From the NCBI GenBank assembly GCA_964430065.1, contig CAYSEP010000001.1:6394-50089 (forward strand): 43,696 bases of DNA, given 5' to 3'. A program made the translations under genes and the position numbers. Under the pieces are notes generated by a model. That model saw nothing but the letters and a program-made list of their open reading frames with translations. It did not search any database and had not been told where the DNA came from. This document shows positions 1,521 through 43,574 of this stretch, in pieces. This stretch comes from an uncultured Candidatus Peribacteria bacterium (GTDB lineage: Bacteria; Patescibacteriota; Gracilibacteria; BD1-5; UBA2023). How positions within the stretch are numbered: position 1 is the first letter of the stretch; each line of letters begins with the position of its first letter.

Positions 1521-1650
1521 GTCATTTTCGTCATTTCGAGTGAGCCCTGTTTCTGTGGGCGACGAGAAATCTTCCATACAAGGTACCAGAATTTGAAGAT
1601 TTCTCTCTTGATTCATTACAGGAACAGATGAATCTCGCTCGAAATGACAA
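1521..1650. repeat. family-A palindromic mini-repeat (copy A1), long multi-hairpin form
   Basis: Termini gtcatttcgagtgag ... ctcgctcgaaatgac. Internal perfect inverted repeat gagaaatcttc/gaagatttctc, plus gattcat/atgaatc. Lies between the convergent pilin-like gene and dnaB. Confidence 0.7.
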
Positions 1651-5276: not shown

Positions 5277-5294
5277 TTGTTCTACGGTTCTTTT

Positions 5295-5325
5295 AAAAAC
5301 TCCCCCATTTGGGGAGTTTTTCTTT
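5295..5325 (+). terminator. intrinsic terminator downstream of rplS
   Basis: aaaactcccc-attt-ggggagtttt hairpin followed by a T-rich run. Confidence 0.7.
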
Positions 5326-5362
5326 TCTTATAGTGAATGCTAAAAGATTTGCTAGTGTCAGT

Positions 5363-5440
5363 CCTCCTCTTATAGGGGAGGTAAGGAGGGGTACTTTCGT
5401 CTCGAATACCCCCTCTCACTCGCCCTACAAGGGGGAGAAT
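5363..5440. repeat. family-B G/C-hairpin mini-repeat (copy B1), intergenic
   Basis: cctcctcttataggggagg ... ccccctctcactcgccctacaagggggagaat. Colinear with copy B2 at 25705-25769 apart from a 12-nt insert. Confidence 0.7.
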
Positions 5441-5758
5441 TTGGAATCAGAGTATACAGACTTATGGAATAATTTCAGTATTTTATAGCACGCGAGAATC
5501 TCATTTCAGAGTAAAAAAGTTACTATAAATCTCTAAAAATTCTTCACATACTTCGGCTTGCTTTTTCCGTGAAGCAATGGTGAAGGGCGTTACTCATTTT
5601 TCCTGTATACATAGCGTGTTCGATATTCCTGTCAAATGATTTTTTTCTTTTGACTTCGCTTAAAAAAAGAATAAAAAGGCGTTCATAAATCCAGAGATAA
5701 AACAGTATTACAGAGCGTATAGTGAGTCCGTCAAGTTTCCATTTCTTTTGCTCTTCTC

Positions 5759-8441: not shown

Positions 8442-11366
8442 ATGTCGATTTTAGTTTATTCTGAGTGAGACTCTGGGGTCGAGAAAATAAATGCAACAAA
8501 AGAGCAAAAACCTGACCACCTTTGATTAACAGCAGACGATTACTCTAGTTGTGCTTTTGCTATGGGTTTCGATAGGGAACGAGTAACTAAAACTCTAGAG
8601 TATTTTTCTAAATACCGCCAGGTAGCCGCAAGTCTCATGCATTTAGATATTGAATCTTCTACATTTTTAAACTCATTCCTTAGTTGCTTACTATTCGAAA
8701 GAGAACTAGTAGTACCAAGTGAAGATGTTGTAAATAAGATAAGAAACTGGATAGCATCGATTCCTGGTATTTGGGCGGTAAATGAGGATTTTCTTATTGC
8801 TATTGCAATGGAAAATCAAAAATCTTATCACACTCTTAGAGTATTACTTTTATTTGTAAACTTCTGGAGATTGCATCCAAAGTATATCTGAAGGTTAATT
8901 GGGGAAGACGAATATAGTAATAATTCAGAGAAAGGAATCGTACCTTTAACTCTAGCCAGTTCTGATTTCATAGCTCTTTCTAATATATATTTGGCTAAAT
9001 CAGATAATCTTAACTTTAGATCAACTACATGGTTTAATACGAGTGATGGGAATCGTCTCACTTACCATTTTAAGTGAAGATACTCTTCTCAAAAAAATAA
9101 AGATGTTGGCAAAGCCTTTCCTCACTATCGACATTTTTGTAAGATAGATTCTATAGGAGCACTCCGCGCATTGGAAGAATACATACTTGTTTGATGATTT
9201 TGACTACAAGAATCTGGTGATATACCTATTGATATACTTCGAGCTTTTATCAGAAAACATATTCTTCATATTGATACGATCATTGCTTTTTTAAACAAAA
9301 AATGAATAGATTTTTATTCATTGAATCAACTTACAAGAAAAGTTATTGAGGCAGAGAGAGGGAAAATTGCGTGAGGATCACCTACCCCTAAAAAAACAAA
9401 CCCATGAAAATTATGAAAACATACCTCAATCCTTCAGCCATCACGACCAATATATACTAGTAATGCAAATAATAGTAATACTGTAGACCCAAATACCAGA
9501 AACACAGTTCCAGAAAGCCATAAATATGAAGTTCCTATTTTTATCTGAAACGCAAAGAAATCTCTTATATCTTGACAATGATTTAATTGAACTAGAGAGA
9601 ACCTAGTAAGAGAGATCCCTTACTCCAAACTTACACTTTTATGGATTAGGGAGGATTGAGGTGAATGGATATCTCATGCAGGGTGAATTTCTATAAATCT
9701 CAACAAGAAGGATATTGGTTCATATGAATTCTGTTATACTCGTCCAGAAAATACTCCAGAAACGGAAAATAGTCCAGTGGAAAGAATACAAATCGAGCAA
9801 AAGAAAAATGTATGAAGTATCACAGATACTGTGCCGAAACAAGTTGCCGTGAACATCCCTGATCAGCCAAAACAAGAAGAAGAAAACCCACTCGATGCTA
9901 TCGCTCTGAATTTACTTTCGAAGATTGGAGAAGGTGCTTATGCTATTAATGAAGATGGTCTAGGAAATATCTCTCTGAGATTTTCGGATTGTGACTATGT
10001 TGCTCGTTGGTATAAGGAGCTTTCTATAGCAACGCTCTCTGGATGAGGAACGGAAAACGATCATGCATATCTTATAGACCTTCTTAGAAAAGAAATTACA
10101 AATGCATTTACCCAACATATGGCTCTAAAAAGAGAGAGAGAAGAGGCAGAAAAAACGCGTATACTGATTCAAGTAATGGGGAAGTTCACAGATATGATTA
10201 TAGCACTGAGCTGACCACATGATGTTCTAAATATAGAAACCCTCCTGAGAGCATCGAGGCACAACGACTATCATGCAGGGATTATTGCTACCAGAAATGG
10301 TTATAAGGAAAAAACGGATAAATTTTTAGTTGAGATGCGAAAACTCTGAGTTATCATAGAGTACGCTCGAGTAGACATATCATGAAAAAAGGACGAGAAG
10401 TGAAAAGAATTCTCCCTAAAAGTATATGCTCAAAGTGATCAAGAAAATATAGTTTCTATACACTCTACTCAGGATAACTATACTTTACAAGGCGGTATGG
10501 GAGACGAGAAACTTGCCGAGATTGCCAAAGCAGGTTTTGCACTCTTTGGACTCTTGGGAAGAAGAATTATAGAAGAGCCTCATTCTAGCCAAGTAAAGAA
10601 ATGAGAAACTAAACCAACAGTAAGTGACGTACTCGGTGGAAACTATAAAAAACCTCGGACAATCTTTACTCAGCTTGAGAAAGGTGAACAAGATACCATT
10701 CGAGATTTGATAAAGCGACTCGATGAATGAAGGGGGAAAATATCAAAAGGTGCTTATGTAAATTATGAGATAGGTTTTCTAGATCATCAAATATCCAGTA
10801 GAAAAGGCTGGCAAGATATCCAAGATTGAGATATGCTTGTCCTTCGAGATGAATCTATCAGGGCCGAGAGTAGTGAACATACTAAACCAAATCCAGAAGT
10901 ATACGATCTCCTTGAAGTGAGTGAACATTTTCAGAAGTACATGCTCCTCAGGTGGGTAAGTACTATAACAGATATAGAAGGTATATCCCTTCCTCAGTAC
11001 AAAAGACAAAAATCACCATTCCAGAATTGAGCACTTGAATTTTTTCGAGCATTTTGGTTCTCACTCTCAGAAGAAAAAAGAAACGAATTCAAGAACAATA
11101 TCGGACTAGATCCAAATACAGAAAAGCTATCACCGACAACATGACTCAGGACTATGTACGATGAATGAAGAACTCTCTTTCATCACTTCATGTATCTCAT
11201 TCGAAGGGGGCGAGAAAATGCTATCACTTACCAGGAGGGTAGTGAAAGGAAAATATACCAACAGAGGTGACCTATTCCACTCATATATACACGACCGAGT
11301 CTTATAACTCAAGAAGATCTTAGAGAATATCGACAAGAAATTGCACAAAACACATGAAATCACTAA
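8442..11366 (+). CDS. large orphan protein (974 aa) of unknown function
   Basis: I read frame 0 line by line from ATG 8442 to TAA 11364-11366. There is no TAA or TAG in 974 codons of AT-rich DNA, and 31 TGA codons. Track ORFs 8562..8891, 9831..10046 and 10833..11030 are pieces of it. No domain recognised. Confidence 0.7.
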
Positions 11367-19512: not shown

Positions 19513-20967
19513 ATGATAGAACACCTAAATACACTCCTCCTTCCTCTCGAGAACCTGATAAAAAAATACCGAAAATATATAGGCTACGTCTTTCTTCTTC
19601 TGACGCTTCTCTCATTTTCTTTTTTTGCTATGCAAAATGGTGTGAAAGAGAGCTGAGAAAAAGCGATTCTCATACTCTGGATACTCCTCTGGATTCCGAT
19701 TTTTGCTCGAGTACTCGATCTGGGTATTGCCAAAGCTTTGCTACCGTTACGCAAAGAGCTTGGAATCCTTATGGGAACTCTGGCAGTAGTACACGCTACT
19801 AGCTTTATATCACCAGATCCAGGTTATCTTTTCACGTCGAATTTTTGGATTTCTGGATGATATCCTTCGGCCTATGCTTTTGGATTTTTTGCCTATATTC
19901 TCACCCTTCCTCTTCTTTTCACTTCGAGTACTTGGATGATGAAAAAAATGGGAAAATACTGGAAACTCCTCCACCGTCTTGCTTATGTTATAATTATACT
20001 TGTTGTAATACATGTGGTACTTATAAAGGCATTTCTTTGATTTGAGTACTGACCGGTAGTCATACTCGTCCTCTACTTCATAGGAAAAACTCTCGAATGG
20101 AGAGGCTTCACACTGAGAAAAAAATGAGAAAAAAATTACCAGAAATGACAAAAATGGATATGTCTTCCCTGTGGTATGATATATGATCCTATCCTCGGCG
20201 ATCCTGATGGTGGCATAAAACCTGGTACAGAATTTCATGATATCCCTGATTCATGGAGATGTCCTGAATGTGGTGTGACGAAGGCAGACTTCGCTCCCTA
20301 TGAACCAGGGAAAAAAGAAAAACGAGAACCCATACAGGTAGTAGAAAAAACTTTTTTGAATGAGACTACCGTAGAACTCATACTCGAAACAGTGAAGGAA
20401 GAAGAGTCAAAACCAGGACAGTTCATGAGTCTCATCTGGCAAGATGAAGATGGAGAGTTCCAGAGATCATATTCGATAGCAGCACAAGAGGGAAGTCGAT
20501 ATACCTTTCTCATCAAGCTCACTGAACATGGTCGAGGATCACGTGCGCTCAGATCTATCTCTGTATGAGAAAGTATAGTTACTCGTGGAGTGCTTGGCCA
20601 TTTTATCCTCCAGGAGGATTCACATCCGAAAATATTTGTCGCGACAGGAACAGGACTTGCTCCAATATACAATATGATCTCTAGCCTCTCTGAAGACGTG
20701 AAAAAGTCACTCTATTTCAGCGTATCGACAGAGGCAGAGCTTTTCTATATTGATAAGCTCCACTGCATCTCAAATCTCGATCTCCATATCCATACGACTC
20801 GTCAGAAAGTAGAATGATACAAGGAGGGAAGGATCGATATAGACCATATCGAAGCAAACCCCGATACTGAGTGGTATCTCTGTGGAAACCCTCGTATGGT
20901 CAGCGAAGCCAGAGAAAAACTCATGAAGAGATGATTCACGAAAGTCTATAGTGAAGAGTTTAACTAA
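19513..20967 (+). CDS. fusion protein: ferric-reductase-like transmembrane domain + rubredoxin + FNR-like FAD/NAD(P)-binding reductase
   Basis: Frame 1 is open from ATG 19513 to TAA 20965-20967 with 9 TGA. About 6 TM helices with His residues ([18 protein letters not shown]). Rubredoxin segment [12 protein letters not shown]...WRCPECG. FNR motifs [14 protein letters not shown] and YLCGNPRMV. Confidence 0.7.
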
Positions 20968-21042: not shown

Positions 21043-22467
21043 ATGAAACCCTCTTCTCTCTCCCGCCGTGAGAAACTCCTCCTCGGACTTCTCTCTTCTA
21101 CCCTCATCTTCTCTGCATCATTCTCCTATGGAGCCGTGAATAGCAATAAGGTGGATGCTATCATGGAAATGATCACCAAAGGGTGAGCGAATTTCTCAGA
21201 TATCCCAGTAGCAGGACAAACCAAGAGTGAAAGAACTCAATACTACGAGAAAGTCGATGCAGGACTCTGAGATGCAGTAGAGATGCTTGCAGTCGTACGC
21301 AACAATATACGATCTCTCATGGGACTCTCTCCAGCATACACAGCAGATGATATCGTCTGAAGTATCCTCGGCTGATTGGTAAGTGGAGTAGGAGGGAATA
21401 CTGGAACGACAACGAGTCCAGGAAATCCAGCGAACCCTACCAGTACGACAGGAAACAGTTGTACAAACGGAGGTATAGTCGAACTCCCCCAGAGCATGCC
21501 TCACGGTCTTGATATGGGGGTCATACGAATAGCAATGGATAATACGTGTCGTACTCAGGTGTTCCGATGTAATAATGGTACCATAGAAAAGGTATGAGCA
21601 GAGGGAAGATCTTGCCCGACCAATTCTCGAATCCCTTTCCCAGGATATAGTCCACCAGCTGCACAGAGCTGTAAGACCAATCCTAAAATCACGGTGAAAA
21701 CCGCATACAGTGATTCTTTTAATGGTTTCGATTATGCAGGTGGAATATATGAAGATAACGGATTCCAAAATGCTACATTTCACTCCTATCCACTTCACGG
21801 TACACCAGATGGGATGAATCCAGATGACTTCTGAAAATATCAGGTCTCGCGATTTCAACGGACAGATGGAACAATCTTTGGTGATGTAATATTTCGTACA
21901 GTAGCTATCTCCAAGGTTCCAGACCAGTATACTCGTATAGCTCTCGGTGTCGACCCAAAGATCAGCAGGGGAGAACTATTCCCTGAAGTAAAGTGGGATC
22001 AGCAAACGAGACAAGCTAAGACAGGTAGTGGGATTCTCACAAAGGATGCTATAGACTATCCAGTTACTCCTTGGAATCTTGGTGTCTTTAGTTCTGGATT
22101 CACGATGGCGCTTTCTCGATGCCCTGGTGATGATGGAGATCTTGGGAATAGAGATACGATAAAAGGGCCATTCGGTACGAGAGGAATAGTAAGCATAGAG
22201 AGCAACCAGCCAGCCACTTTGGTAACAAGAACAGTCAAGTCTACCTATAAAAACGACGAGTCGACCGTATGGACCACCTATGATGCGAGCGCCCCAGGAT
22301 TTGGTGCTATGTTGTATGCCCTTCCTTGACTCTATACAGATACGATATGGTATAAAAATTATACCGGACATGGAGATTGTATGCCTAATAATACTACATG
22401 GTGATGTATCTTTAAAAGAGAGGGTGGATCAGCTGGATCACGATATGGTCCCATGGGGCCACTCTAG
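21043..22467 (+). CDS. secreted Cys-rich protein of unknown function
   Basis: Frame 1 was read line by line and is open for 474 codons with 8 TGA to TAG 22465-22467. Signal-peptide-like N-terminus MKPSSLSRREKLLLGLLSSTLIFSASFSYGA, followed by a Thr/Pro/Gly linker. Confidence 0.65.
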
Positions 22468-22582
22468 GAAAATCATAGAAAATTTTTAGTATGAGTATTG
22501 ATCACTACGAACAAGATAGCATGACTTTAAGCATAGGGAAAGGTTTACAAAAAATAAAGTGAAGAGTGTAACTAAATCTATT

Positions 22583-24368: not shown

Positions 24369-25835
24369 TTATATACTTTTTTCTTCTTGTGCAAGTTTTC
24401 TCACGATCTCTTTTCCAGAACTATACCCACTCGCCCAGCATATCTGGAGTGAAAAGCCTCCCGTATATCCATCGACATTGAGTACTTCGCCTGCGAAGTA
24501 GAGATTGTTATGGATTTTTGACTCCATCGTCTCAGGATCGAGTTCATCGGTCGAGACGCCTCATGCCGTCACGAACTCATCTCCTGGTCGACGTTCGAGG
24601 AGGGTAAGTGGTATACCAGATCCGAGAAGTTCCGCGATTCTTTCTCTATCTTTTTTCGATATCGAGCTCGCGAACGTCTCTCGAATATGAGAAAAATACT
24701 CGAGAATGAAAGCTTCTGCGAATCTTCGTGGGAGTTTTTCAGCGAGGATGCTCGTGATGAGTTTCTTCGGATGAAGTACGAATTGTTCCTTTAGGAAAGT
24801 CTCCCATTTCAGGGTTTCCATATCCGATAGGGGAGAGAGGTGGATGATTTTCGCATGCGCTGGACTGATATGATCCCACGCAAGTGCCGATGATGTCATG
24901 AAGGCAAGTGGTCATGATATACCGAAGTGAGTCAGGAGAAGTGGTCAGGTTAGATCCTCCCTTTTGTCATCCTTGGCGATAGCCGAGGATCTCTTCCTAT
25001 CGTTTGGAATACCTGAAAGAGATTCTCCTACGGAGAATGACAAAGAAACCTTTGCACTCGGAAAAGAAAGTCCTGAGAGAGCATGAAGCCAATTTTCTCT
25101 CGTGAGAAATGAAGAAAGCGAAGGACCAAGTTGTGTCACAGTATGTCCGAGTGATCGGGCAAAAGCATATCCATCTCCAGTCGATCCCGTATGACTGTAG
25201 GCATTTCACCCTGTCGTGATGACGAGGATATCCGCTTCATAGGATCACTTAGGAGTAGTGATAGAGAACTTCTCGTCATCATGTTTTTTGTCATTCCGAG
25301 TTTGCGAGGAATCTGCTTGATTTTCGAGCAGATCCTTCGTTCCTCAGGATGACAAAAAAGAAACCTCAGAAACCCCTTCTCCATAGTGAAGACTGATCCT
25401 ATCACGATATTTCGCGAATACCTCTTCGAAAGCACCGACGACATCGTGCCCGTCATCAGAAATAGGGAATACTCGATTATCTTCTTCACACTTCAGTGGT
25501 ACTCCATGAGTCTCGAACCATTCTCGACATTTTTTCGGAGAAAACTTCCCCATTGCTCGCTCTATGAATTCCCATCCACGAGTGTATTTCGTAGCGAGAA
25601 TTTTCTTATCCGTGATTCCTGTAGTCACGTTGCATCTCCCTCATCCTGAGATGATGACCTTTTTCCCAGGTGTTGTATTTTTCTCGAAAAGATGGATGTG
25701 GTACTCCTCCCCTTGTAGGGGAGGTTGGGTGGGGTACCCCCTCTCACTCCCCCTAAAAGGGGGAGAATTCTCCAGTATCGTCACTGCCGTCATGAGTCCC
25801 GCAGCTCCCGCTCAGATGATCGCTATCGTTTTCAT
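24369..25835 (-). CDS. HI0933/YhiN-family FAD-dependent oxidoreductase carrying three in-frame repeat insertions
   Basis: II[TGA]AGAAG (GxGxxG), ISG[TGA]GRCNVT, the sequence TG[TGA]NAYSHTGSTGDGY, THFGIS[TGA]P and the sequence YFAGEVLNVDGYTGG. All track pieces on this strand (25344..25628, 24945..25139, 24561..24899) share one frame. Confidence 0.85.
24966..25041. repeat. family-A mini-repeat (copy A4) inside the HI0933-family CDS
   Basis: gtcatccttggcgatagccgaggat ... gattctcctacggagaatgac. Translated in the gene frame as LSFSVGESLSGIPNDRKRSSAIAKDDKR. Confidence 0.75.
25290..25353. repeat. family-A mini-repeat (copy A5, 64 bp) inside the HI0933-family CDS
   Basis: gtcattccgagtttgcgaggaat c tgcttgattttcgagcag atccttcgttcctcaggat gac. 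Translated as FLSSGGTKDLLENQADSSQTRNDKK. Confidence 0.75.
25705..25769. repeat. family-B mini-repeat (copy B2) inside the HI0933-family CDS
   Basis: Colinear with the intergenic copy at 5363-5440. Translated as SPPFRGSERGYPTQPPLQGE between the GxGxxG helix and the second beta-strand. Confidence 0.75.
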
Positions 25836-26464: not shown

Positions 26465-26931
26465 ATGGATATAAGAAATTCTCAATCAGGAACGCGTATT
26501 GAGATCGTCTCTAAGGATGATTTTAACTTCTACTGAGACAATAAGCTAGTAACACCCAAATTTTGACCTATTCAAGTGAGGCGATCAGGTTCTTGCATAA
26601 GAGGAACCGATCTTTGGTATGCTGTTTCTAGTCTTTGTTGAGATAAGGATGTTCCAGAAGTGGAACCATTGAGTTCTGAAAAATATCTCGTAAAGTGCGA
26701 CCCGCTCGTATATACTGAAAAAACTGGGTTCATAGCCTGATGACATGAAGAATGATTGATTTTTTGATTATGGAGAAAGGAGACTGGTAAAGAAGAACAT
26801 ATTACGGAATTTCTTATAAAAACAGTTGGTAAACAAGCGAGCGGAATCCTCATAGTCAATCCGAGACAATTTTCACAATTTATGAATTTGGCACAATCTA
26901 TACAAAAATATTCAGAATCCGTAAGGGTTTA
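26465..26931 (+). CDS. hypothetical protein (155 aa)
   Basis: Frame 2 is open from ATG 26465 to TAA 26929-26931 with 7 TGA. The antisense track ORF 26572..26859 looks less protein-like. Confidence 0.45.
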
Positions 26932-27002
26932 AATCTTTTTTTGTCACCATTTTTCGATATACTCGTCTCTAGGTTTGTAGTACTTACGAAAAACAGATAA
27001 AA

Positions 27003-27572
27003 ATGCTCGTGGAAGCGATCGCGAAAGCGAAATCCTGAGATAGAGATGCTCTCGGCACCCTCTATGATGCCTCATATGATCGAGTTTATCGTATGCTTTT
27101 TCACCGTACGCTCGATGTCGCCTTCACAGAAGATGTCATCTCAGACGTGTACATGAAGGTCGTAAAAGGTATAGAAAAATTCGTAGGATCGACAGAAGGG
27201 GAGTACTTCTCCTGGGTACTCCGCATCGCCTACACGACACTCATCGACTCACTCCGTCATGAGAAGCCGATCGACTCTCTCGATGACATCGAATGGGAAC
27301 CGAGTGAATCTGTAGATTTCGGGGAAATAGTCGACCATAAAGAGAAACTCACCGAAGTCCTCTCCTACATGGATACTCTTCCAGAACGAGATCGCATGAT
27401 CGTCACACTCCGTATCTGGGATGACCTCTCCTACGACGAAATAGCAGAGATCACTGGAGAGTCAGTATCAAATAGTAAAAAAATCGTCTCTCGATCTCTC
27501 GAGAAAATCGCTGCCAACGTCTCACCCCTCGCGCTCATAGCATTCATCTCTACTCATGTCTTCACACGCTAA
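27003..27572 (+). CDS. ECF-type RNA polymerase sigma factor
   Basis: Region 2 (DVISDVYMKVVKGIEKF...FSWVLRIAYTTLIDSLR) and region 4 (LPERDRMIVTLRIWDDLSYDEIAEITGESVSNSKKIVSRSLEKI). One TGA near the N-terminus. Confidence 0.85.
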
Positions 27573-28488
27573 CGACATCCTCGAAGAGCTCGCACCACTT
27601 CTCACGAAGAAGGTGGAGCATGAGAAACTCCAGAAAGTCATCTCACTCTTTTCGAGCTATACGCCAAAAGTATATCCCGATGCGAATTTTCGTGATAGAC
27701 TCAGACAAGATATTCTCATAAGCAAAAAACAGGAGACTAAAAAAAGATATACCTTCTCTTGGTATACGTTTTTCCCTGTTTTTGGGACTGCATTTGCGTG
27801 TATGCTTTTTGGTATAAGCTTCTGGAAATTCTTTTTCCCTACAGAAAATATGGAAATAGGGATTCCTATGATCTCACGAGAATCACCTGTCAGTCAGGAT
27901 AAGGGGGAAGCTCCTGCAGGGGCAATGAGTAAAATCGCAAATGAAAAAATACAAGAATTCCGAGCCGAAAAGAGGAGTATCGATACAGAAATACAGGGAA
28001 TAGTCGACGATATGAATTCTCTAGACATATCAGATGTCTCAAGAGAAATTTCTCCTGAGTCAGTCACTCCTCCAGTAGCAGCTACTCCGACAGTTTCGAC
28101 GACAACATATGATACTGCACTTGCAGGAACTGCTTCGCCTATGATGATGAAATCTATACCTGCGATAGTATCATATCCTCTCCCCGAATACGCTACGACG
28201 ATGCGTCTCTATGTGAAACCAGAGTCATGGTCAGCAGATGAGATAGCATCTCGGTCAGGAAGTGGTATCCTAGTACGCGATACTCCGACAGAGAAGCGGT
28301 CTGTCGTAGAGACAAAATCCATGAAAATCCTCGAAGGAAAAACCGTCATATCTTCAAAGGTAGAGTATAGAGTCATGTCGAAGATAGCAGTAAATCCAGA
28401 GAAACTCTTCTATCTCGTCCCTGTCATCGAATATACGACAGATACTGGTGAGCACATACTCATTTCGCTCATCCGAGGATTCCGATAG
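27556..28488 (+). CDS. putative anti-sigma factor (single-pass membrane protein)
   Basis: Overlaps the sigma gene by 17 nt. A cytoplasmic N-terminal region of about 70 aa, one TM helix (WYTFFPVFGTAFACMLFGISFW), and an extracytoplasmic domain. No TGA codons. Confidence 0.5.
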   Translation: MSSHANDILEELAPLLTKKVEHEKLQKVISLFSSYTPKVYPDANFRDRLRQDILISKKQETKKRYTFSWYTFFPVFGTAFACMLFGISFWKFFFPTENMEIGIPMISRESPVSQDKGEAPAGAMSKIANEKIQEFRAEKRSIDTEIQGIVDDMNSLDISDVSREISPESVTPPVAATPTVSTTTYDTALAGTASPMMMKSIPAIVSYPLPEYATTMRLYVKPESWSADEIASRSGSGILVRDTPTEKRSVVETKSMKILEGKTVISSKVEYRVMSKIAVNPEKLFYLVPVIEYTTDTGEHILISLIRGFR

Positions 28489-28538: not shown

Positions 28539-29444
28539 ATGAATTACATAACTTCATTTTTTATGAAATCATTTTTCTCAAAAATCCTCATCGTTCTCAT
28601 ATCACTCAGTGTCATCACAGAAAGTGTATCAGCCTACGGAGTGAGCAGATACCGCTCGCGCACACAGTCTTCATACTATAATAACCGTGGCTACGTAGCT
28701 CCAGCGCCACAGTACAATAATGGTTACAATAACTACAACAACTATCAAACTCCTGTCGTATCGTGTCCGAATTTTTCGAACGCGAGCGTATCTATAGGAA
28801 CTCTCCCAAATGGACTCAATATATCGGTATCTTCATACGATAGCGCACTTCAGACATGTATCAGGAGTACTGCATGGGCTTCATACTTCACTCGATTCGG
28901 GAATAGCGTGAACTTCAGCGTCGTGAATACGACACTCGGTGTACAGATGACAGCCACAAGCTACGATAGCTACACGATATCGAGTATACAGAACACTTCA
29001 TGGGTCAGTATCATAAATGGAATACAGGGCTATAGCTACTCTCCATACTACAACCAACCTCAGTACTCATATCCACAATACCAAAACAACCCTTCGTACA
29101 ACTACAATAACAACCCATACTACTACAATAATCAATATCAGTACAATCCTCCCGTATACGATAACTCATCTCGAAGAGGAAGTGTCGTGTTCGGAAACAC
29201 GAATCAGATAGCACGTTCACTTACGTATGTATCCAACGGGGTACAGATGAATTTCACAAGCAACGACTACAATACGATGAACTATCTTCAGAGATTCTCA
29301 TTTACCTATCTCTTCTCGCACCTCGGAGGTGTATCGGTAAGTCAGTCGAATATATCTGGAGGGATCCAAGTAACCGTTACAGCAGGAAGCACTTCTACGA
29401 TCCAGGAAATACAAAATATCGGATCAGTCCTCGTCTATCAGTAG
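28539..29444 (+). CDS. secreted protein with N/Q/Y-rich segments and a four-fold internal repeat
   Basis: Signal peptide, two N/Y/Q/P low-complexity tracts, and four copies of a motif of about 20 aa (NGLNISVSSYDSALQTCIRS, LGVQMTATSYDSYTISSIQN, NGVQMNFTSNDYNTMNYLQR, GGIQVTVTAGSTSTIQEIQN). No TGA codons. Confidence 0.65.
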   Translation: MNYITSFFMKSFFSKILIVLISLSVITESVSAYGVSRYRSRTQSSYYNNRGYVAPAPQYNNGYNNYNNYQTPVVSCPNFSNASVSIGTLPNGLNISVSSYDSALQTCIRSTAWASYFTRFGNSVNFSVVNTTLGVQMTATSYDSYTISSIQNTSWVSIINGIQGYSYSPYYNQPQYSYPQYQNNPSYNYNNNPYYYNNQYQYNPPVYDNSSRRGSVVFGNTNQIARSLTYVSNGVQMNFTSNDYNTMNYLQRFSFTYLFSHLGGVSVSQSNISGGIQVTVTAGSTSTIQEIQNIGSVLVYQ

Positions 29445-29460
29445 AAAAAACAATTATATA

Positions 29461-29488
29461 AAAACCTCACCAATTTGGTGAGGTTTTT
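29461..29488 (+). terminator. intrinsic terminator
   Basis: aaaacctcacc-aatt-tggtgaggtttt. Confidence 0.65.
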
Positions 29489-29519: not shown

Positions 29520-29583
29520 GTCATCCCGGTGAATACCGGGATCCAGAGATTCTGAACTGGATTCTGGCATACGCCAGAATGAC
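29520..29583. repeat. family-A mini-repeat (copy A6, 64 bp; the clearest two-hairpin form)
   Basis: gtc [atcccggt gaat accgggat] c cagagattctgaactgg [attctggc atac gccagaat] gac. Located downstream of gdh. Confidence 0.8.
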
Positions 29584-29618: not shown

Positions 29619-30959
<1,341 letters not shown>

Positions 30960-32713: not shown

Positions 32714-33502
32714 CTAGATAGAGTATCGATAGAATTTTACTACTGCATCTTTTCCGATAAAATCACCAACTTTCATATCAGGATTGACGACAAATGGTTG
32801 CGTAAGGAGAGCATTCTCTTCACGGAATTTTGTCATTTTTCCATCGATGATTTTCTCGAGGATTTCTGCAGGTTTGCTTGCATTTTTCGGATCTTGTTTC
32901 ATGATCTCGAGTTGGATTTCTTTCTCTTTTGCCACGACCTCATCGGAGATGTCAGTAGGAGAGGTAACCTGTGGAGCAGAAGCAACGACGTGCATAGCGA
33001 CTTGCTTGAGTTTATCAGCATCAGTCCCAGATTTTGCGACGACGACAGATCCGTTCTTAAAGTTCGAATGGACATAGCTTGCTATGACATCACCTTCGAT
33101 CTTCGTGAGTGCTTGGATGACCATGTTCTCACCGACTTTGAGTGTGTATTCACTTGCTTTGAGTTCATCAGCCTGGTCAATAGCTTCAGCGTCTGAGTCA
33201 GAGTTCTGACGGATAGAGATGAAATGATCGAGCATCGCATCGAATGTCTCGTTGCGAGCGACGAAGTCAGTCTCACAAGAAACGACTGCTACATAGGTAG
33301 CACCACCTTCTGTGACGATCTTGATTTTTCCTTCGCTTGTCTCGTTTCCAGAGCGTTTCGCAGCCTTCGCGAGACCCTTCTTACGGAGAAGGTCGATCGC
33401 AATCTCGAGGTCACCATTGGCTTCGACGAGTGCATTTTTACAGTCAGACATACCGACTCCTGTTCTTTCACGGAGTTCTTTTATCATTTGAGGGGTTACC
33501 AT
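32714..33502 (-). CDS. tsf: translation elongation factor Ts
   Basis: The N-terminal UBA-like sequence MIKELRERTGVGMSDCKNAL. 262-aa intact ORF with no TGA codons. Confidence 0.95.
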   Translation of the reverse strand: MVTPQMIKELRERTGVGMSDCKNALVEANGDLEIAIDLLRKKGLAKAAKRSGNETSEGKIKIVTEGGATYVAVVSCETDFVARNETFDAMLDHFISIRQNSDSDAEAIDQADELKASEYTLKVGENMVIQALTKIEGDVIASYVHSNFKNGSVVVAKSGTDADKLKQVAMHVVASAPQVTSPTDISDEVVAKEKEIQLEIMKQDPKNASKPAEILEKIIDGKMTKFREENALLTQPFVVNPDMKVGDFIGKDAVVKFYRYSI

Positions 33503-33529: not shown

Positions 33530-33593
33530 GTCATTCTCTGAGTCGAAAATCTGTACCTTTTTTTGAAAGGGATCCTCGCAAGGCGAGAATGAC
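33530..33593. repeat. family-A mini-repeat (copy A8, 64 bp) inside the rpsB-tsf operon
   Basis: gtcattctctgagtcgaaaatc ... atcctcgcaaggcgagaatgac. Confidence 0.75.
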
Positions 33594-33603
33594 AAAACAG
33601 GAA

Positions 33604-33984
33604 CTACTTTCCAGGAGTAAACATATTCGAGATACCAAGAGCCTGGATGAGCTTCTCTGCATTTTCGAGGAGAAATGGTATCGCAAATTCTTTTCCGTTA
33701 AATGCCTGCACCGCAAGGAAGAGGGAAGTGAGGAAAAGTGCAAGGTTCACCAATCATCCAAGTCCGTATATCCAAATAAAGGAAAGAGCGATCGCAAGAA
33801 TGACAGATGCAACATTGATGATAAATCCCTGTTTCATATATTTCACGACAAATGAAGTTTTCACATTCATAAGAAGTGGCACAAAGAAGAGGAACGATGC
33901 GAGAGCTGCAGCGAGTTTTTCCTGGCTAGATACGACTGGAGAAGTAGGAGTTTCCATAAGAGAAAAAGTAAAAAATAGAAACAA
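33604..33984 (-). CDS. small multi-pass membrane protein (DUF4870-like)
   Basis: Three hydrophobic helices, one TGA, TAG at 33604-33606. The start is either 33984 or the ATG at 33957. Confidence 0.5.
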
Positions 33985-34020
33985 AGCGAGGGATATATAT
34001 TTCTTTTTATGAGATATGTA

Positions 34021-34824
34021 TTACGCTTCTACGGTTTCAGTTTTTTCAGGAGTTTCTTCTGTTTTCACAGTACGAGCCATAGGAGTTTTTGGAGCGAGTT
34101 TCTCTGTTTTTGCTGGTGCTGAAGCGAGAGGTTTCTTATCATCAGACTTGCGAGCCTTGATAGACGACTTGAGTTCACCGAGGATGAATGCAAGAGCCTT
34201 GATCGAGTTTACATTGCATGGAACGAAGTAGTCAGTCTTATCGATATCACCAGTAGAACCGAGGAGAGCGATAGTAGTGACACCCATAGTATGAGCTTCT
34301 GTAAGAGCAAGATCTTCGTAGTGACCATCGACGACCACGACGACATCTGGAGCGCGTTTCATGTCTTTCACACCGACATATGCCGTCTTGAGTTTCTCGA
34401 GTTCCTTCATTTTTACTGATACTTCTTTCTTCGTAAGTCCTTCGAGCATCCCGTTTGCGAGAGATGATTCGAGTTCGTTATAGTAGCTGATTCGTTTTTT
34501 GATCGTTCCGAAATTCGTGAGGAGTCCTGGAACCCACTTCGAACTGACATAGAAATGTCCTGTAGCGATAGCAAGAGCTTCGACGAGATCCTTAGTCTGA
34601 ACCTTCGTTCCGACGAAAAGGATAGTCTTTCCACGAGAAGAAAGATCTTCCAGAAGAGCTTTCACTTCAGTGAGCTTTTCTGCAGTTTTATAAAGGTCGA
34701 ATACATGGATACCATTCTGGACACCATAGATGTAGTTACGCATCTTTGGAGACCAGTATTCACGCTTGTGTCCGATGTGGACGGCGTTTTCGAGCATGCT
34801 CTGTACGAGAGTAGCGTTTGACAT
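34021..34824 (-). CDS. rpsB: 30S ribosomal protein S2
   Basis: The sequence LENAVHIGHKREYWSPKM and other S2 motifs. 267 aa with no TGA codons. Confidence 0.95.
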   Translation of the reverse strand: MSNATLVQSMLENAVHIGHKREYWSPKMRNYIYGVQNGIHVFDLYKTAEKLTEVKALLEDLSSRGKTILFVGTKVQTKDLVEALAIATGHFYVSSKWVPGLLTNFGTIKKRISYYNELESSLANGMLEGLTKKEVSVKMKELEKLKTAYVGVKDMKRAPDVVVVVDGHYEDLALTEAHTMGVTTIALLGSTGDIDKTDYFVPCNVNSIKALAFILGELKSSIKARKSDDKKPLASAPAKTEKLAPKTPMARTVKTEETPEKTETVEA

Positions 34825-34980
34825 AGAAAAAAATAATAAAAAAATAATCCTTACGAGATCTTAGGTCAGATACGTAGTCCTTCGTAGCTCTGTTTATCCT
34901 TCGTAGCTCGGAAAGAGTGGAGAAGGAAAAGGAGCGGAGAAGGAAGGAAGTATCCTTGTGCTCAGGAACATACATCCCTG

Positions 34981-40392: not shown

Positions 40393-40847
40393 GGTTTAGG
40401 AGAGTTTTCTCATAATCAATTATGATATTCACTTACTGCATTCAGAAAGGCTGAAAATGTAACAGGTAAACGAATGCCTAACTTATTCATATTCTCTGAA
40501 TAATATTCGCAAAGTAAAGTGATCTCTCGTTTTTTTCACCAATGTTGAAAAAATGGAGCTACCAATCATTGATTTTCGGACAAACATTCCATACGATTCA
40601 CGCCATCCTTAGCAAGAAAATTTCTGACAAAATCAGCGATTTGACTAGGCACATCTTTCTTTATTTCTTGATTTTTTTTCTGCTCTTCAATAACTGATGC
40701 TACAAAACCTTTTACATAATCCTCTACCCCCTTTCCTTTGGTTTCCCATGGGTCAACAACCTTAGGAAATTCTTGAGGTTTTTGAAATTTAAAATTGTGA
40801 GGAGAAGGAATATCGCCTCTAGATGTATCATTATTAATTCAAGTCAT
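40389..40847 (-). CDS. hypothetical protein (152 aa)
   Basis: ATG at 40847 to TAG at 40389-40391, with 5 TGA and no TAA or TAG in frame. The last 9 codons run through the gatB terminator and overlap the gatB stop. Confidence 0.4.
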
Positions 40848-40903: not shown

Positions 40904-41701
40904 ATGAAAAAACTTATTTCTCTCATCTTCATTTTTCTCTTGCTCACCGAGCATGTATGAGCATTAAATATGCTGAAACCGAGCCTCACAGCTCAGATGA
41001 ACAGACAGGCGAGTATAGATAAAGTGAACTATATAACAGAGAAAAAACTCAAGAACCAACTCAGACTCGCAGAGATCCAGGCACGCAGAAAGGTAGGGAT
41101 AAAAACCACAGTAGCCAGCACTACGCCAAATACTACAACTTCCTCAGTAAAGCCTGTCTATACAGCTCCTTCGAACACCAATACAACATACTCAGTCTCA
41201 TCCTCGATCCCATGAGTCGATATGAATCGTGTCCGAGCAACGTGGATGGGCTGGTACAATAGTACGAGAAGTGCTCTCTCACTCCAAAACTATACATGGG
41301 ATACTCGACTTGATGGAACCGCTCATGACTGGAATATCGTATTTGCAGCAGGGAAGGGGCAAAATCACCATAGACGCAATCCAGGAGACAGCTACTATGA
41401 TTTCCCTGTGATCGATGCATGGTTCGGTGCTCGTGGAGTGAATCCGAAAGTGATAAATAGAGCAAAAAATACTGAGAATGTCGGCTATGGATACTACTCA
41501 TGTAGCGACTCGGACTGTACCGATGAGCTCATCGCGAGTATCCGCTCTACCTATGACTTCTTCATGAGCGAGAAGGGGAAATCCTATGATGCTCACTACC
41601 GCAGTATCGTACAGCCATACTTCTCGAAGATCGGGATGGATATCATAGTCGTACCGAGCGAGAAACGATACTATATGACCATCCACTATATCACGGAATA
41701 G
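40904..41701 (+). CDS. secreted CAP/SCP/PR-1-like domain protein
   Basis: Signal peptide, Thr/Ser-rich linker, and a C-terminal domain of about 150 aa with the spacing typical of SCP-like extracellular proteins (W..R...L.W...L...A, HY..IV). 2 TGA. Confidence 0.5.
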
Positions 41702-41709
41702 ACTGTCTC

Positions 41710-41734
41710 GTCATTCCTGCGAAGGCAGGAATCC
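41710..41734. repeat. family-A short hairpin (copy A9), intergenic
   Basis: gtc attcctgc gaag gcaggaat cc. Confidence 0.75.
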
Positions 41735-41828
41735 AGTAATAATATGATTTATACCATATATTTCATATAATTCTCTTTTCTTTTGCAAAAGAGTTTTTTT
41801 AAGATATATTCATACAATAATTTTTTCT

Positions 41829-43574
41829 ATGCCATTTATCGATATTCCGCAAGTTGATCCGAATCAATTACCAAGTTTATGAGCTCCACCACCTCTCACA
41901 CAGAGTATATCGAGTCGTGTAAATAGCGTCACTATCGGATATACCGTGCAGGTCAAAATACCTGATGGGAATACTTATCACTATCGGAACACTGATGAGA
42001 TACTCCATTCCCTCATATATGCCTACGAGAATATATCGAGATGATCTCTTTCGAAAGAGGAGAGAGCACTTCTCGAGAAAGTATGGATACAGTATACATC
42101 TTCGAGATGAACAACTCTCAGTCTCACTGATATACTGAGATTTCTGAGTACTAGTGAGGATGCTCGCATGAATGAAATAAGTAATGTCATCGGAAACAGC
42201 ATCTCTACCGATCCACAGAACCTCTATCTGCTCTTGTCAGAAAGTCTCAGTAGAGAAGCAGGGCGATTTCGATGATTTCTCACAGATCTGATAGGAAAAA
42301 TCCCCCCGAAAGAACTCTCGAATCTCATCCTCATAATCGGCTGACTCGATCGTACTCAGGATATATCCGGAATCATGGCAAGTCTCACCCCAGAACAACG
42401 AGCAGAAATTACAGAAATAATGAAAGATCCACGAAGTCGACGAGTATTTCTCCAAGATGTCGTCCTTCGTATGACTCATCTCATCTATAGGGAGACTGGC
42501 GTGCGTATCGATGCTATAAGTTTCGGATGAAGAGAGCATGGAGATGGGGGTATGATCATATCGATACCAGGAAAGGCAGGGAAACCGATATTTCTCATCA
42601 TCACGAAACACCATACTACCGTAGCCGAAACAGCAACAGAAGCTCTCGATACACTCAGTATGGCAAACAAGAGTCCTGTCTTTACTCACTATCTCATCGA
42701 TGCGAGTGGAAAAATCCTCTGACAGATCGAGACACCTCTTTCGGTATGGACACGAGATCAGATATTCCCGACAGCGGAACTCATGGAACGGTGGACGCGA
42801 AACCCGAGTCTAATACCGACAGGAGTGAGTCTCGATATCTCTCTCTTCAATCATAGAAACAAAGTCACTCTGACACAAAAAACCAAAAATGGATGGTTCG
42901 CACAACTTGGTATCTCCGAAGGGAACATATGGGGAATAAGAGCAAATACATCATTCGCAAATTTCGGATGGCAATATAAAAGTCAGGAAAATACCCTTAC
43001 GCTCCACACATCTGCCAGCAGTACGAACTTTGATCCTCGTGGGTTTCGAGATGTGGAAGGACTCTCTTTTGGTGCGAACTGGTATAATTCTCTCGGGAAA
43101 GTAGGGAGCATCACGCTCAGTTCATCAGGAAGTGCGTATATAAGTGCGCAGGCTACGGAGTGAAACTGGAGAAATCCGCAAATAGGTGAATGAGTCATAA
43201 AAAATAGTGTTCATGCGAATTCTCAAATTTCTCCTCATACTACAATCAGTACATCAATCGGAAGCAAATACAACTGGGCACCATGAAATGTGACACCAAA
43301 TACTTTCGATCATATACAAATCTCCGATAGAGATCTCTGAAGAGCTCTGAGCTCTACAGAATATGGCTTCCAGGTAGCTCATATACTCCAAAACGGAGAA
43401 AAAATAGACGGGAATATTCACTATGAGATATGACCTCTAGCAAAGAAAATACAAGGACAAGTCTCTTATACTCTCGCGGATGGAAAAACTCGTCTCATCG
43501 GACACTGAGAAAAAACAAGTTGAACCTATAATTCGAATACTTATTATGGATTTCGCCTAGAACATAAATTCTAA
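41829..43574 (+). CDS. large hypothetical protein (581 aa), beta-strand-rich C-terminal half
   Basis: I read frame 0 line by line from ATG 41829 to TAA 43572-43574, with 16 TGA and no TAA or TAG. Track ORFs 42783..43163 and others are fragments. Confidence 0.6.

What the first reader, a model, noticed from the sequence alone, without database searches (positions are those of the whole stretch)
24369..25835. Three palindromic mini-repeats inserted in-frame in one flavoprotein gene
The HI0933/YhiN-family gene reads through three elements that also occur intergenically in this window.
- Family-B copy 25705-25769 encodes SPPFRGSERGYPTQPPLQGE, just after the GxGxxG helix.
- Family-A copy 25290-25353 encodes FLSSGGTKDLLENQADSSQTRNDKK.
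- Family-A copy 24966-25041 encodes LSFSVGESLSGIPNDRKRSSAIAKDDKR, immediately before the conserved THFGISGP motif.

All three keep the frame and carry no TAA or TAG. The conserved family motifs resume on both sides. This parallels the established case of Rickettsia palindromic elements inside coding genes, but here it occurs in a code-25 lineage and involves two unrelated repeat families in a single gene.
Basis: partly seen in the sequence, partly recalled or inferred. Interest (0 to 1): 0.85.

Follow-up and report, generated by a model that had tools for sequence, protein, structure and literature searches.

The report
Palindromic mini-repeats translated inside a flavoprotein gene
A Gracilibacteria enzyme gene reads straight through three small palindromic repeat elements that also sit between genes. 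They add floppy surface loops to the protein, much as in the classic Rickettsia case, and reading TGA as glycine makes such insertions easier to survive.

Summary
Gene 24369-25835 (-) is an intact 488-codon HI0933-like flavoprotein read with code 25: eight in-frame TGA codons fall on conserved glycines.

It contains three in-frame repeat elements:
- family B at 25704-25769
- two family-A elements at 25290-25353 and 24966-25041

Many Gracilibacteria orthologues of 408-414 aa, and all more distant ones, run straight across the three points. The net gains are about +16, +25 and +29 aa. In an AlphaFold model (pLDDT 86) the inserts are the only long low-confidence coils, each between regular secondary-structure elements.

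The finding extends beyond this gene:
- The three points are insertion hotspots. Over half of 72 orthologues carry different elements there.
- A sister genome (90% nt identity) differs at all three.
- GDH in this window, and an FNR-type and a SpoU-type gene elsewhere, also read through such elements.
- Ten of 17 inserts contain in-frame TGA.

Best reading: selfish MITE-like palindromes retained in permissive loops, analogous to but not homologous with Rickettsia RPEs. The mobilising enzyme is unknown, and translation of the inserts is inferred, not shown.

The parts
24369..25835 (-). HI0933-like (YhiN / aminoacetone-oxidase family) FAD flavoprotein CDS. 488 codons, genetic code 25, stop TAA at 24369-24371.
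   Evidence: Translation with 8 TGA = Gly on conserved glycines. Pfam PF03486 3.4e-64 and PF22780 4.9e-16. PDB 4cnj and 2i0z at E about 1e-39. Foldseek 2i0z target-normalised TM 0.84. 91% aa against 78% third-position identity to the L083 orthologue, which indicates purifying selection.
25704..25769 (.). Family-B element, in frame at hotspot 1 (loop between Rossmann helix alpha1 and strand beta2). It is read as (N)SPPFRGSERGYPTQPPLQGEE. The net gain is about 16 aa, because about 5 native loop codons are missing.
   Evidence: Matches the intergenic copy at 5361-5441. 92% identical to the copy at the same site in L081. Absent from L083, L003 and L004. AF2 coil at residues 24-44, pLDDT about 52-76.
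25284..25359 (.). Family-A element A2 (core 25290-25353 plus T/A-run TIR extension), in frame at hotspot 2 (beta-hairpin loop). It is read as FLSSGGTKDLLENQADSSQTRNDKK (+25 aa) and contains one in-frame TGA.
   Evidence: TIR regex. Fold -34 kcal/mol, z = -7.2. Codon alignment against empty sites in L004 and L006. 86% identical to the L001 copy, which sits at hotspot 3 in the same frame. AF2 coil at residues 162-188.
24960..25047 (.). Family-A element A1 (core 24966-25041), in frame at hotspot 3 (beta-hairpin turn just before THFGISGP). It is read as LSFSVGESLSGIPNDRKRSSAIAKDDKRE (+29 aa).
   Evidence: TIR regex. Fold z = -3.2. Empty site in L083, L081, L004 and L005. AF2 coil at residues 268-290, pLDDT 47-57.
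5361..5441 (.). Family-B element, intergenic copy between the rplS-like ORF (ends 5276) and dnaA (5759-7183). It has 15 extra central nt.
29520..29583 (.). Family-A element A3, intergenic between convergent genes 28539-29444 (+) and GDH 29619-30917 (-). It consists of two inverted hairpin modules around ATCCAG...CTGGAT.
   Evidence: Fold z = -6.7. A related element lies in frame at hotspot 2 of the L005 orthologue.
33530..33593 (.). Family-A element A4, intergenic between a small ORF (33604-34020, -) and tsf (32714-33502, -).
   Evidence: Fold z = -5.4.
1521..1648 (.). Family-A-type 128-nt element A5 (GTCATTTCGAG...CTCGAAATGAC subfamily), intergenic between 576-1499 (+) and 1671-2939 (-). It is the same subfamily as the in-gene inserts of L081 and L083.
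   Evidence: Fold -49.9 kcal/mol, z = -5.9.
30279..30306 (-). Single dRS3-like hairpin module (ATTCCTGC-CTTC-GCAGGAAT). It is read in frame inside the glutamate dehydrogenase gene as [10 protein letters not shown], about 10 extra residues just before the NAD-binding GxGxxG strand.
   Evidence: The GDH alignment to 1euz and 1gtm shows an 8-10 aa gap there. Pattern expectation 0.02 against 2 observed.
41709..41736 (.). Single dRS3-like module (ATTCCTGC-GAAG-GCAGGAAT), intergenic, 8 nt after the stop of 40904-41701. It is a perfect 28-nt inverted match to 30279-30306.
   Evidence: I3; z = -3.5.

Best explanation
The three segments are copies of small, non-autonomous, palindromic (MITE-like) repeat elements.

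Family A
- An outer stem TTTYTGTCAT/ATGACARAAA encloses two inverted hairpin modules of the ATTCC-N-GGAAT (dRS3-like) type.

Family B
- Two CTCCCC...GGGGAG hairpins flank a GGGGTA...TACCCC centre.

Both families are dispersed in Gracilibacteria genomes, between genes and inside them.

Shown
- In this flavoprotein gene the elements landed in three positions where the fold tolerates extra residues: the alpha1-beta2 loop of the FAD Rossmann fold and two beta-hairpin turns.
- They sit in a frame without TAA or TAG, and the gene stays under purifying selection.

Inferred
- The elements are transcribed and translated as disordered surface loops of about 16-29 aa.
- Selection removes insertions anywhere else. 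That filter is why the same loops are occupied again and again, by different elements, in different orthologues.
- Reassignment of TGA to glycine makes the filter much more lenient, because family-A termini (ATGAC) and bodies are rich in TGA but poor in TAA and TAG.

Unknown
- The enzyme that moves the elements.
For: Repeat nature
- B1/B2 similarity, E = 2e-10.
- Five TIR-bounded A copies against a null of 0.1.
- A-type elements number 13 per 152 kb in Gracilibacteria loci against 3 per 1.09 Mb elsewhere.
- Fold z = -3.2 to -7.2 for family A.

Lineage-specific insertion
- Base-length orthologues lack all three segments.
- PDB homologues show gaps.

Recency and mobility
- Sister locus L083 (nt identity 0.90, third positions 0.78) is empty at sites 1 and 3 and has a different element at site 2.
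- The A2 subfamily sits at hotspot 2 here and at hotspot 3 in L001, with 86% identity.
- Family B is in frame in a SpoU-type methylase and in another ORF, and is intergenic elsewhere.
- An A element is in frame in L083's FNR-type gene but absent from the window orthologue.
- A single module is in frame in GDH.

Permissive loops
- The AF2 model has pLDDT 86.3 and pTM 0.83. The inserts are coils of low pLDDT between regular strands and helices.
- The core superposes on 2i0z, 2gqf and 3v76 with target-normalised TM 0.83-0.84.

Translation through the elements
- In nine DNA-level orthologues chosen by conserved motifs, all 17 inserts of 8 aa or more keep frame with zero TAA or TAG.

Code-25 link
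- 65 of 90 element frames are open under code 25 against 33 of 90 under code 11.
- 10 of 17 inserts contain an in-frame TGA.
Against: - There are no RNA or protein data, so translation of the inserts is inferred.
- No target-site duplication could be defined. The filled and empty sites are too diverged, and at site 1 about 5 native codons are missing rather than simply interrupted.
- No transposase or RAYT-like gene was found in the 19 ORFs scanned in the window, or in the Pfam calls of L081 and L083. Mobility therefore rests on distribution only.
- The family-B copies at site 1 of the query and of distant L081 are 92% identical with the same right junction, although third codon positions of the host genes are near saturation (0.43). 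A pure 'random insertion plus selection filter' model does not readily predict this.
- Two sister lineages both have an element within 3 codons of each other at site 2, which also strains a purely random model.
- Family B is not more stable than shuffled sequence.
Confidence: 0.8

Rival explanations
1. Site-directed turnover. The elements do not land at random and get filtered. Instead they home to, or replace one another at, pre-existing element ends or short target motifs such as the GTTTCT that forms the outer TIR. The route would be recombination or gene conversion, or a sequence- or structure-specific recombinase of the IS110/Piv type that targets dRS3 in Neisseria. Hotspots would then be created by the insertion mechanism.
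For: - The same loops are occupied by different subfamilies in more than half of the orthologues, with a patchy distribution on the tree.
- Sisters QUERY and L083 both carry an element within 3 codons of each other at site 2, next to a native GTTTCT that equals the element's outer TIR.
- Family B sits at the same junction in QUERY and in distant L081 at 92% identity.
- At hotspot 3, at least 6 subfamilies sit at the same codon, give or take one.
Against: - Insertion points within hotspot 2 differ by several codons among loci.
- Flanks of family-B copies in five contexts share no motif.
- Flanks of A copies beyond the TIR are not conserved.
- No recombinase candidate was found.
- Short beta-turns are the only permissive places, so selection alone can mimic site specificity.
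Confidence: 0.25
2. Exapted loops. The inserted peptides have been co-opted and are now maintained for a function of the protein, such as interaction surfaces or regulation, rather than being merely tolerated.
For: - The family-B peptide is strongly conserved between QUERY, L081 and the SpoU-type gene, and is read in the same frame in all three (SPP.RGS.RGYP.QPPLQGEE).
- The A2 subfamily is read in the same frame at two different sites.
Against: - The inserts are absent from many close orthologues and differ completely between sister genomes.
- They are predicted disordered.
- Intergenic copies are just as conserved, so the conservation is at the DNA level.
- Frame sharing is expected when few frames are open: family B has 3 of 6.
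Confidence: 0.1
3. The elements are removed or bypassed before the protein is made, for example by RNA processing at the hairpins or by translational hopping. The protein would then be of normal length.
For: The elements form very stable hairpins on the mRNA strand, -29 to -36 kcal/mol. RNase III cleavage of MITE hairpins is known for Correia elements (PMC10969869).
Against: Removal would lift any constraint on frame or stops, yet all 17 inserts in nine orthologues keep frame with no TAA or TAG. No bacterial ligation mechanism is known for such hairpins (established knowledge).
Confidence: 0.04
4. There is nothing mobile here. The segments are ordinary fast-evolving loops, or the gene is a decaying pseudogene or an assembly chimera, and the resemblance to intergenic sequences is chance.
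For: Loops at these positions vary in length across the family. 2i0z has a longer loop at site 3 than 4cnj.
Against: - DNA-level repeats with E = 2e-10 and a TIR architecture far above chance.
- The same elements occur in other genes and contigs from other samples.
- The frame is intact over 488 codons with 91% aa against 78% third-position identity to L083.
- Insert-bearing orthologues are recovered in independent NCBI and Logan assemblies.
Confidence: 0.03

Closest known systems
Rickettsia palindromic elements (RPEs; Ogata et al. 2000 Science, 2002 Genome Res; summarised in PMC10969869)
   Same: - Short palindromic repeats occur both between genes and in frame inside unrelated housekeeping genes.
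- They are translated as extra peptide segments compatible with the fold.
- Several families coexist in one genome.
- The host is a reduced-genome, host-dependent bacterium.
   Different: - The phylum is unrelated (Gracilibacteria / CPR) and the genetic code differs (25).
- The elements are shorter: 64-128 nt and single 28-nt modules, against about 100-150 bp.
- The termini differ (GTCAT...ATGAC, dRS3-like modules).
- Most inserts contain in-frame TGA and would be lethal under the standard code.
- Turnover at the same loops across orthologues is very high.
- Sequence homology to RPE families was not tested.
Neisseria dRS3 repeats / NIMEs (dRS3 = ATTCCC(N8)GGGAAT; PMC3898611)
   Same: - The hairpin module here is a 20-nt unit with 6-nt inverted ends, ATTCCT(N8)AGGAAT, flanked by GTC...CCAG.
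- Full family-A elements are two such inverted modules around a short variable centre. This is reminiscent of RS sequences bracketed by dRS3.
   Different: - The arms differ by one base from the dRS3 pattern.
- Stems vary freely among copies (CCCGG, CTGGC, CCTGC, CTCGC and others).
- Neisserial dRS3 and NIMEs are described as intergenic arrays and phage-integration targets, not as in-frame coding inserts.
- No Nf-type phage or Piv/IS110 integrase was seen here.
Bacterial MITEs in general (Correia/CREE, ERIC, Nezha, QMITE; review PMC10969869)
   Same: Small size, terminal inverted repeats, many dispersed copies, strong hairpin potential, occasional in-frame fusions with host ORFs.
   Different: - No target-site duplication could be demonstrated.
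- No parent IS with matching TIRs was found.
- The proportion of copies inside genes is much higher than is typical for the MITEs reviewed.
REP/BIME elements mobilised by RAYT (IS200/IS605-like Y1) transposases
   Same: Hairpin-based modular repeats that form inverted doublets. The stems are conserved as structure rather than as sequence.
   Different: No GTAG-type head and no RAYT gene detected. REPs are extragenic by definition.

Membership tests
HI0933-like / aminoacetone-oxidase-family flavoprotein (Pfam PF03486 + PF22780) | Scores above Pfam gathering thresholds for the Rossmann domain and the barrel/H2TH domain. | tested here: met
   217 bits (cut-off 50) and 59.4 bits (cut-off 27).
HI0933-like / aminoacetone-oxidase-family flavoprotein (Pfam PF03486 + PF22780) | Three-domain fold as in 2i0z, 2gqf, 3v76 and 4cnj. 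| tested here: met
   Foldseek E = 2.6e-31 to 1.4e-27, target-normalised TM 0.77-0.84.
Genetic code 25 (Gracilibacteria / SR1: UGA = Gly) | In-frame TGA at positions that are conserved glycines in homologues. | tested here: met
   8 of 8 TGA codons fall on family glycines (GxGxxG, SGGGRCN, TGGN, ISGP, AGGV). The closest named relatives are Candidatus Gracilibacteria. The only tRNA in the window is Trp(CCA).
Rickettsia palindromic elements (RPE) | Palindromic repeat present in many copies, both intergenic and intragenic. | tested here: met
Rickettsia palindromic elements (RPE) | Intragenic copies are in frame and located where the fold tolerates them (surface). | tested here: met
   17 of 17 inserts are in frame and stop-free. 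AF2 shows coils between secondary-structure elements.
Rickettsia palindromic elements (RPE) | Sequence homology to one of the RPE-1 to RPE-10 consensus families. | not tested
   No RPE consensus was available in the tools, and Rfam has no hit on the elements. The finding is therefore filed as an analogue, not as a member.
MITE (miniature inverted-repeat transposable element) | Small size (under about 300 bp) with terminal inverted repeats and multiple dispersed copies. | tested here: met
   64-128 nt, with TIR matches of 9-10 out of 11.
MITE (miniature inverted-repeat transposable element) | Target-site duplication flanking the element. | tested here: inconclusive
   Filled/empty comparisons with L083 are too diverged around the junctions. 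Site 1 shows loss of about 5 native codons.
MITE (miniature inverted-repeat transposable element) | A cognate autonomous IS or transposase sharing the TIRs. | tested here: not met
   No transposase domain in the 19 window ORFs scanned, or in the Pfam calls for L081 and L083. Only about 150 kb of Gracilibacteria DNA was examined, so absence from the genome is not shown.
Neisseria dRS3 / NIME | 20-bp unit matching ATTCCC(N8)GGGAAT. | tested here: not met
   The window units are ATTCCT(N8)AGGAAT, one change per arm. The relaxed pattern ATTCCY(N8)RGGAAT gives 2 hits against 0.02 expected. The architecture is the same, but the defining pattern is not matched exactly.
Neisseria dRS3 / NIME | Serves as attachment site for Nf filamentous phage / Piv-type integrase. 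| not testable with these tools
   No such phage or integrase was seen in the window.
REP/BIME with RAYT | Associated RAYT (Y1 transposase) gene and extragenic location. | tested here: not met
   No Y1_Tnp hit. About half of the copies seen are intragenic.

The most novel reading that the evidence does not exclude
Gracilibacteria carry a diverse superfamily of dRS3-like palindromic elements that actively home to, and replace one another at, a few loops of many housekeeping proteins. This site-directed turnover would be driven by an unidentified recombinase or by hairpin-mediated gene conversion. It would make those loops hypervariable protein segments. The UGA-to-Gly reassignment would be what allowed, or co-evolved with, this colonisation of coding DNA.
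Probability: 0.17. Interest if true: 0.85.

Novelty: new variant of a known kind. Interest (0 to 1): 0.62.

Why it matters
[quoted passage not shown] This finding shows an independent and apparently more dynamic case in a candidate-phyla-radiation lineage.
- Unrelated element families are involved.
- Sister genomes differ at every hotspot.
- At least four different enzymes are affected.

It gives a concrete, testable link between a codon reassignment (UGA = Gly) and tolerance of mobile-element insertion in coding sequence. Ten of 17 inserts would be nonsense mutations under the standard code.

There are practical consequences.
- Such inserts inflate and diversify Gracilibacteria protein lengths (408 to 567 aa for one orthologue).
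- They confound orthologue alignment and structure prediction.
- They can be mistaken for lineage-specific domains.

I found no description of this in the searchable literature. Subscription journals are not covered.

Tried and rejected
- Simple BLAST of the family-A segments against the window finds only 11-12 nt matches. The family was recovered by TIR regex instead.
I used P0001, the same protein with W at the TGA positions, which probably causes the low pLDDT at 212-216.
- The PDB search by DNA reference failed because of TGA 'stops'.
- The look-up of encoding contigs for P0001 returned nothing, so the source genome beyond the window could not be sampled.
- One Pfam call was wasted on truncated sequences.
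- Ogata 2002 (PMC186582) is not held.
- The protein-universe search with the insert peptides failed twice, first as too short and then with no candidates from the word index. A proteome-wide census of insert peptides was therefore not obtained.
- The generic hairpin-module scan is only about 3.4-fold enriched in Gracilibacteria loci (24 per 166 kb against 46 per 1.09 Mb) and catches terminators, so I did not lean on it.
- Rfam has no family for the elements.
- Considered and rejected: inteins (far too short, no motifs), group I/II introns (no Rfam hit, frame constraint), and pseudogene (purifying selection).
Full report
THE GENE

On the minus strand, 24369-25835 is a single 1467-nt frame ending in TAA. 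It has eight internal TGA codons and no TAA or TAG. Read with code 25, the TGAs fall on the family's canonical glycines (IIGAGAAG, SGGGRCN, TTGGN, HFGISGP, TAGGV).

The product scores 217 bits on Pfam HI0933_like and 59 bits on HI0933_like_1st. It matches the solved structures 4cnj, 2i0z, 3v76 and 2gqf. The closest database proteins are from Candidatus Gracilibacteria. P0001, from an NCBI MAG contig of 50 kb, is the same protein translated with W at the TGA positions. The only tRNA in the window is Trp(CCA).

THE REPEATS

Family B
- The in-gene copy (25698-25769) matches 5355-5441 at 94% over 35 nt (E = 2e-10) and 80% over another 40 nt. The intergenic copy has 15 extra central bases.
- The intergenic copy lies between an rplS-like ORF and dnaA.
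- The element consists of two perfect 7-8 bp hairpins (CTCCCCC...GGGGGAG and CCTCCCC...GGGGAGG) around a GGGGTA...TACCCC centre.
- Its folding energy is not better than dinucleotide shuffles (z = -1.2 and -1.7), because G and C runs fold well anyway.

Family A
- BLAST does not find it. A TIR pattern, GTCATYC...GRATGAC, does.
- Copies are at 24966-25041 and 25290-25353 in the gene, and at 29520-29583 and 33530-33593 between genes. With a slightly looser pattern, a 128-nt copy appears at 1521-1648.
- The TIR continues outward as (G)TTTYT/ARAAA(C).
- A strict test (pattern plus at least 9 of 11 TIR matches) gives 5 observed against a null mean of 0.1, maximum 2 in 1000.
- The copies fold with z = -3.2 to -7.2. 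The three gene segments are among the strongest local folding peaks of the whole window.
- Each family-A element is modular: an outer stem plus two inverted hairpin modules of the form ATYCY-stem-loop-stem-RGRAT. The stem sequences differ freely between copies while pairing is kept.
- Single modules occur alone at 30283-30302 and 41713-41732 (ATTCCT-N8-AGGAAT, 2 hits against 0.02 expected).
- The architecture is that of the neisserial dRS3 repeat, ATTCCC(N8)GGGAAT (PMC3898611), with one change per arm.
- A1 and A2 share little beyond the TIR and the architecture, so 'family A' is a superfamily.

ARE THE SEGMENTS INSERTIONS?

An alignment of 72 Gracilibacteria orthologues has a core of 423 columns. 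Many orthologues are 408-414 aa with nothing at the three positions. Extra residues cluster after core columns 25, 149-156 and 235, with a minor site at 267-272. Orthologues from Peribacteria, Absconditabacterales, Uhrbacteria and Firmicutes are of base length.

Relative to base-length orthologues the query gains about 16, 25 and 29 aa. Site 2 is exactly 75 nt, that is T5 + 64 + A6. At site 1 the element is 66 nt but about five native loop codons (VESRD in the sister) are missing.

STRUCTURE

AlphaFold2 with this alignment gives pLDDT 86.3 and pTM 0.83. The inserts are the only long coil, low-confidence stretches:
- residues 24-44, between helix 11-23 and strand 45-51
- residues 162-188, between strands 157-161 and 189-193
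- residues 268-290, between strands 257-267 and 291-302

The core superposes on 2i0z, 2gqf and 3v76 with target-normalised TM 0.83-0.84. Surface exposure as such was not computed. It is inferred from loop position and low confidence.

TURNOVER AND MOBILITY

The inserts found at the hotspots in other orthologues read like translated palindromes of several kinds: VIARNE..AIQ, IPAHAGI, SLRNDK, PSERG, SEWQK. They are distributed patchily on a core-column NJ tree.

Two syntenic orthologous loci were fetched, both showing PPK2, then the flavoprotein, then GltX and HisKA further along.

L083, the sister genome
- It is 91% aa, 90% nt and 78% third-position identical in core codons.
- It is empty at sites 1 and 3.
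- At site 2 it carries a different A subfamily that starts three codons earlier.

L081, a distant orthologue
- Third-position identity is 0.43.
- It has family B at site 1 with the same right junction and 61 of 66 identical bases.
- I cannot fully explain this. See the rivals.

Other evidence
- The A2 subfamily is at hotspot 3 in L001 (YLSSRGTRDLPENGADSSLRRNDKK), with 86% nt identity and the same frame.
- An A3-like element is at hotspot 2 in L005.
- A-type elements are about 30 times denser in Gracilibacteria loci than in the other loci fetched (13 per 152 kb against 3 per 1.09 Mb). The Gracilibacteria loci are centred on this gene, which biases the genic fraction.

OTHER GENES

- In this window the GDH gene (29619-30917, -) reads a single module as [10 protein letters not shown], about 8-10 residues absent from solved GDHs, just before the dinucleotide-binding strand.
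- In L083 the Ferric_reduct-Rubredoxin-FNR gene has a 31-aa in-frame A element (…[11 protein letters not shown]…) that the window orthologue (19513-20967) lacks.
- A metagenome scan for family B found five further contexts. It is in frame in a SpoU/TrmH-type methyltransferase (SPPCRGSQRGYPSQPPLQGEE, same frame as here; I named this protein from its motifs and did not test it with Pfam). It is in frame in an unnamed ORF. It is apparently intergenic in the other two contexts.
- Flanks of these copies share no motif.

FRAME, STOPS AND THE CODE

- Across 15 elements, 65 of 90 reading frames are open under code 25 against 33 of 90 under code 11. The 64-nt A copies are open in 5-6 of 6 frames, against about 4.05 for random window segments.
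- Nine orthologues were selected at DNA level through conserved motifs, not through intact ORFs. In them all 17 inserts of 8 aa or more keep frame with no TAA or TAG, and 10 of the 17 contain at least one in-frame TGA.
- TGA frequency is 3.95% of insert codons against 2.19% of core codons.

This argues that the elements are translated: removal before translation would need no such constraint. It also argues that the UGA = Gly code roughly doubles the chance that an insertion is non-disruptive.

MECHANISM

The shown steps are repeat nature, lineage-specific presence, loop location, frame and stop constraint, and purifying selection on the host gene. The inferred steps are transcription and translation of the inserts, and selection as the cause of the hotspots.

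What moves the elements is unknown. No transposase-like domain was found in 19 scanned ORFs of the window or in the precomputed Pfam calls of L081 and L083. No target-site duplication could be defined. Rfam has no family for the elements.

The main rival for the origin of the hotspots is site-directed homing or element-for-element replacement. Two facts support it: both sisters carry an element at site 2, and near-identical family-B copies sit at one junction in distant orthologues.

COMPARISON AND NOVELTY

The behaviour is that of Rickettsia palindromic elements (PMC10969869). Membership was not tested, and the termini resemble neisserial dRS3 instead.

Full-text searches found no description of such elements in the held library. 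The searches combined Gracilibacteria, CPR or Patescibacteria with palindromic, MITE or in-frame terms.

I rate this a new variant of a known kind. It is of real interest to people working on mobile DNA, CPR genomics and genetic-code evolution. It is not categorically new.

Noticed in passing
window 30279-30306 (in GDH gene 29619-30917, -): The glutamate dehydrogenase gene reads a single dRS3-like hairpin module in frame as [10 protein letters not shown]. These are about 8-10 residues absent from the solved GDHs 1euz and 1gtm, just upstream of the NAD-binding GxGxxG strand.
   Followed up: partly
window 1521-1648: A 128-nt family-A-type element (GTCATTTCGAG...CTCGAAATGAC, fold -49.9 kcal/mol, z = -5.9) lies between ORF 576-1499 and the dnaB-like gene. 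It is the same subfamily as the in-gene hotspot-2 inserts of L081 and L083.
   Followed up: partly
L083 7928-8003 versus window 20679-20707: The sister genome's Ferric_reduct-Rubredoxin-FNR gene (515 aa) carries a 31-aa in-frame A-type element ([31 protein letters not shown]). The window orthologue (484 aa, 19513-20967) lacks it.
   Followed up: yes
L081 10001-12220 site 1 versus window 25704-25769: Family-B copies at the same junction of two distant orthologues are 92% identical (61 of 66), while third codon positions of the host genes are only 43% identical. The more closely related L083 has the native loop instead. This remains unexplained.
   Followed up: partly
window 34856-34976: An intergenic stretch upstream of rpsB (34021-34860, -) has a direct repeat TCCTTCGTAGCTC (x2) facing purine-rich GGAGAAGGAA repeats. 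It folds to -41 kcal/mol. This may be another repeat type or a leader structure.
   Followed up: no
window 29460-29488 and 40755-40783, 5294-5322: AAAAACCTCACCAATTTGGTGAGGTTTTT-type perfect palindromes with A/T tails look like bidirectional intrinsic terminators. One lies immediately next to element A3.
   Followed up: no
window 22577-22579 versus L083 5137-5889: L083 has about 750 nt, including a 208-aa ORF with no Pfam hit, between PPK2 and the upstream gene. The window lacks it. This is another indel between the sister genomes.
   Followed up: no
L081 10001-10780 (P0004, annotated 739 aa); window 26898-27641 (-): With TGA no longer a stop, long spurious or over-extended ORFs appear. P0004 carries a 260-aa N-terminal extension that is not part of the flavoprotein. 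A similar Cys/Asp-rich 'shadow' ORF occurs in the window. This is a risk for automated annotation of code-25 genomes.
   Followed up: no
window 8442-11366, 21043-22467, 41829-43574: Three large ORFs (974, 474 and 581 aa) have no Pfam match at E <= 1e-3.
   Followed up: no
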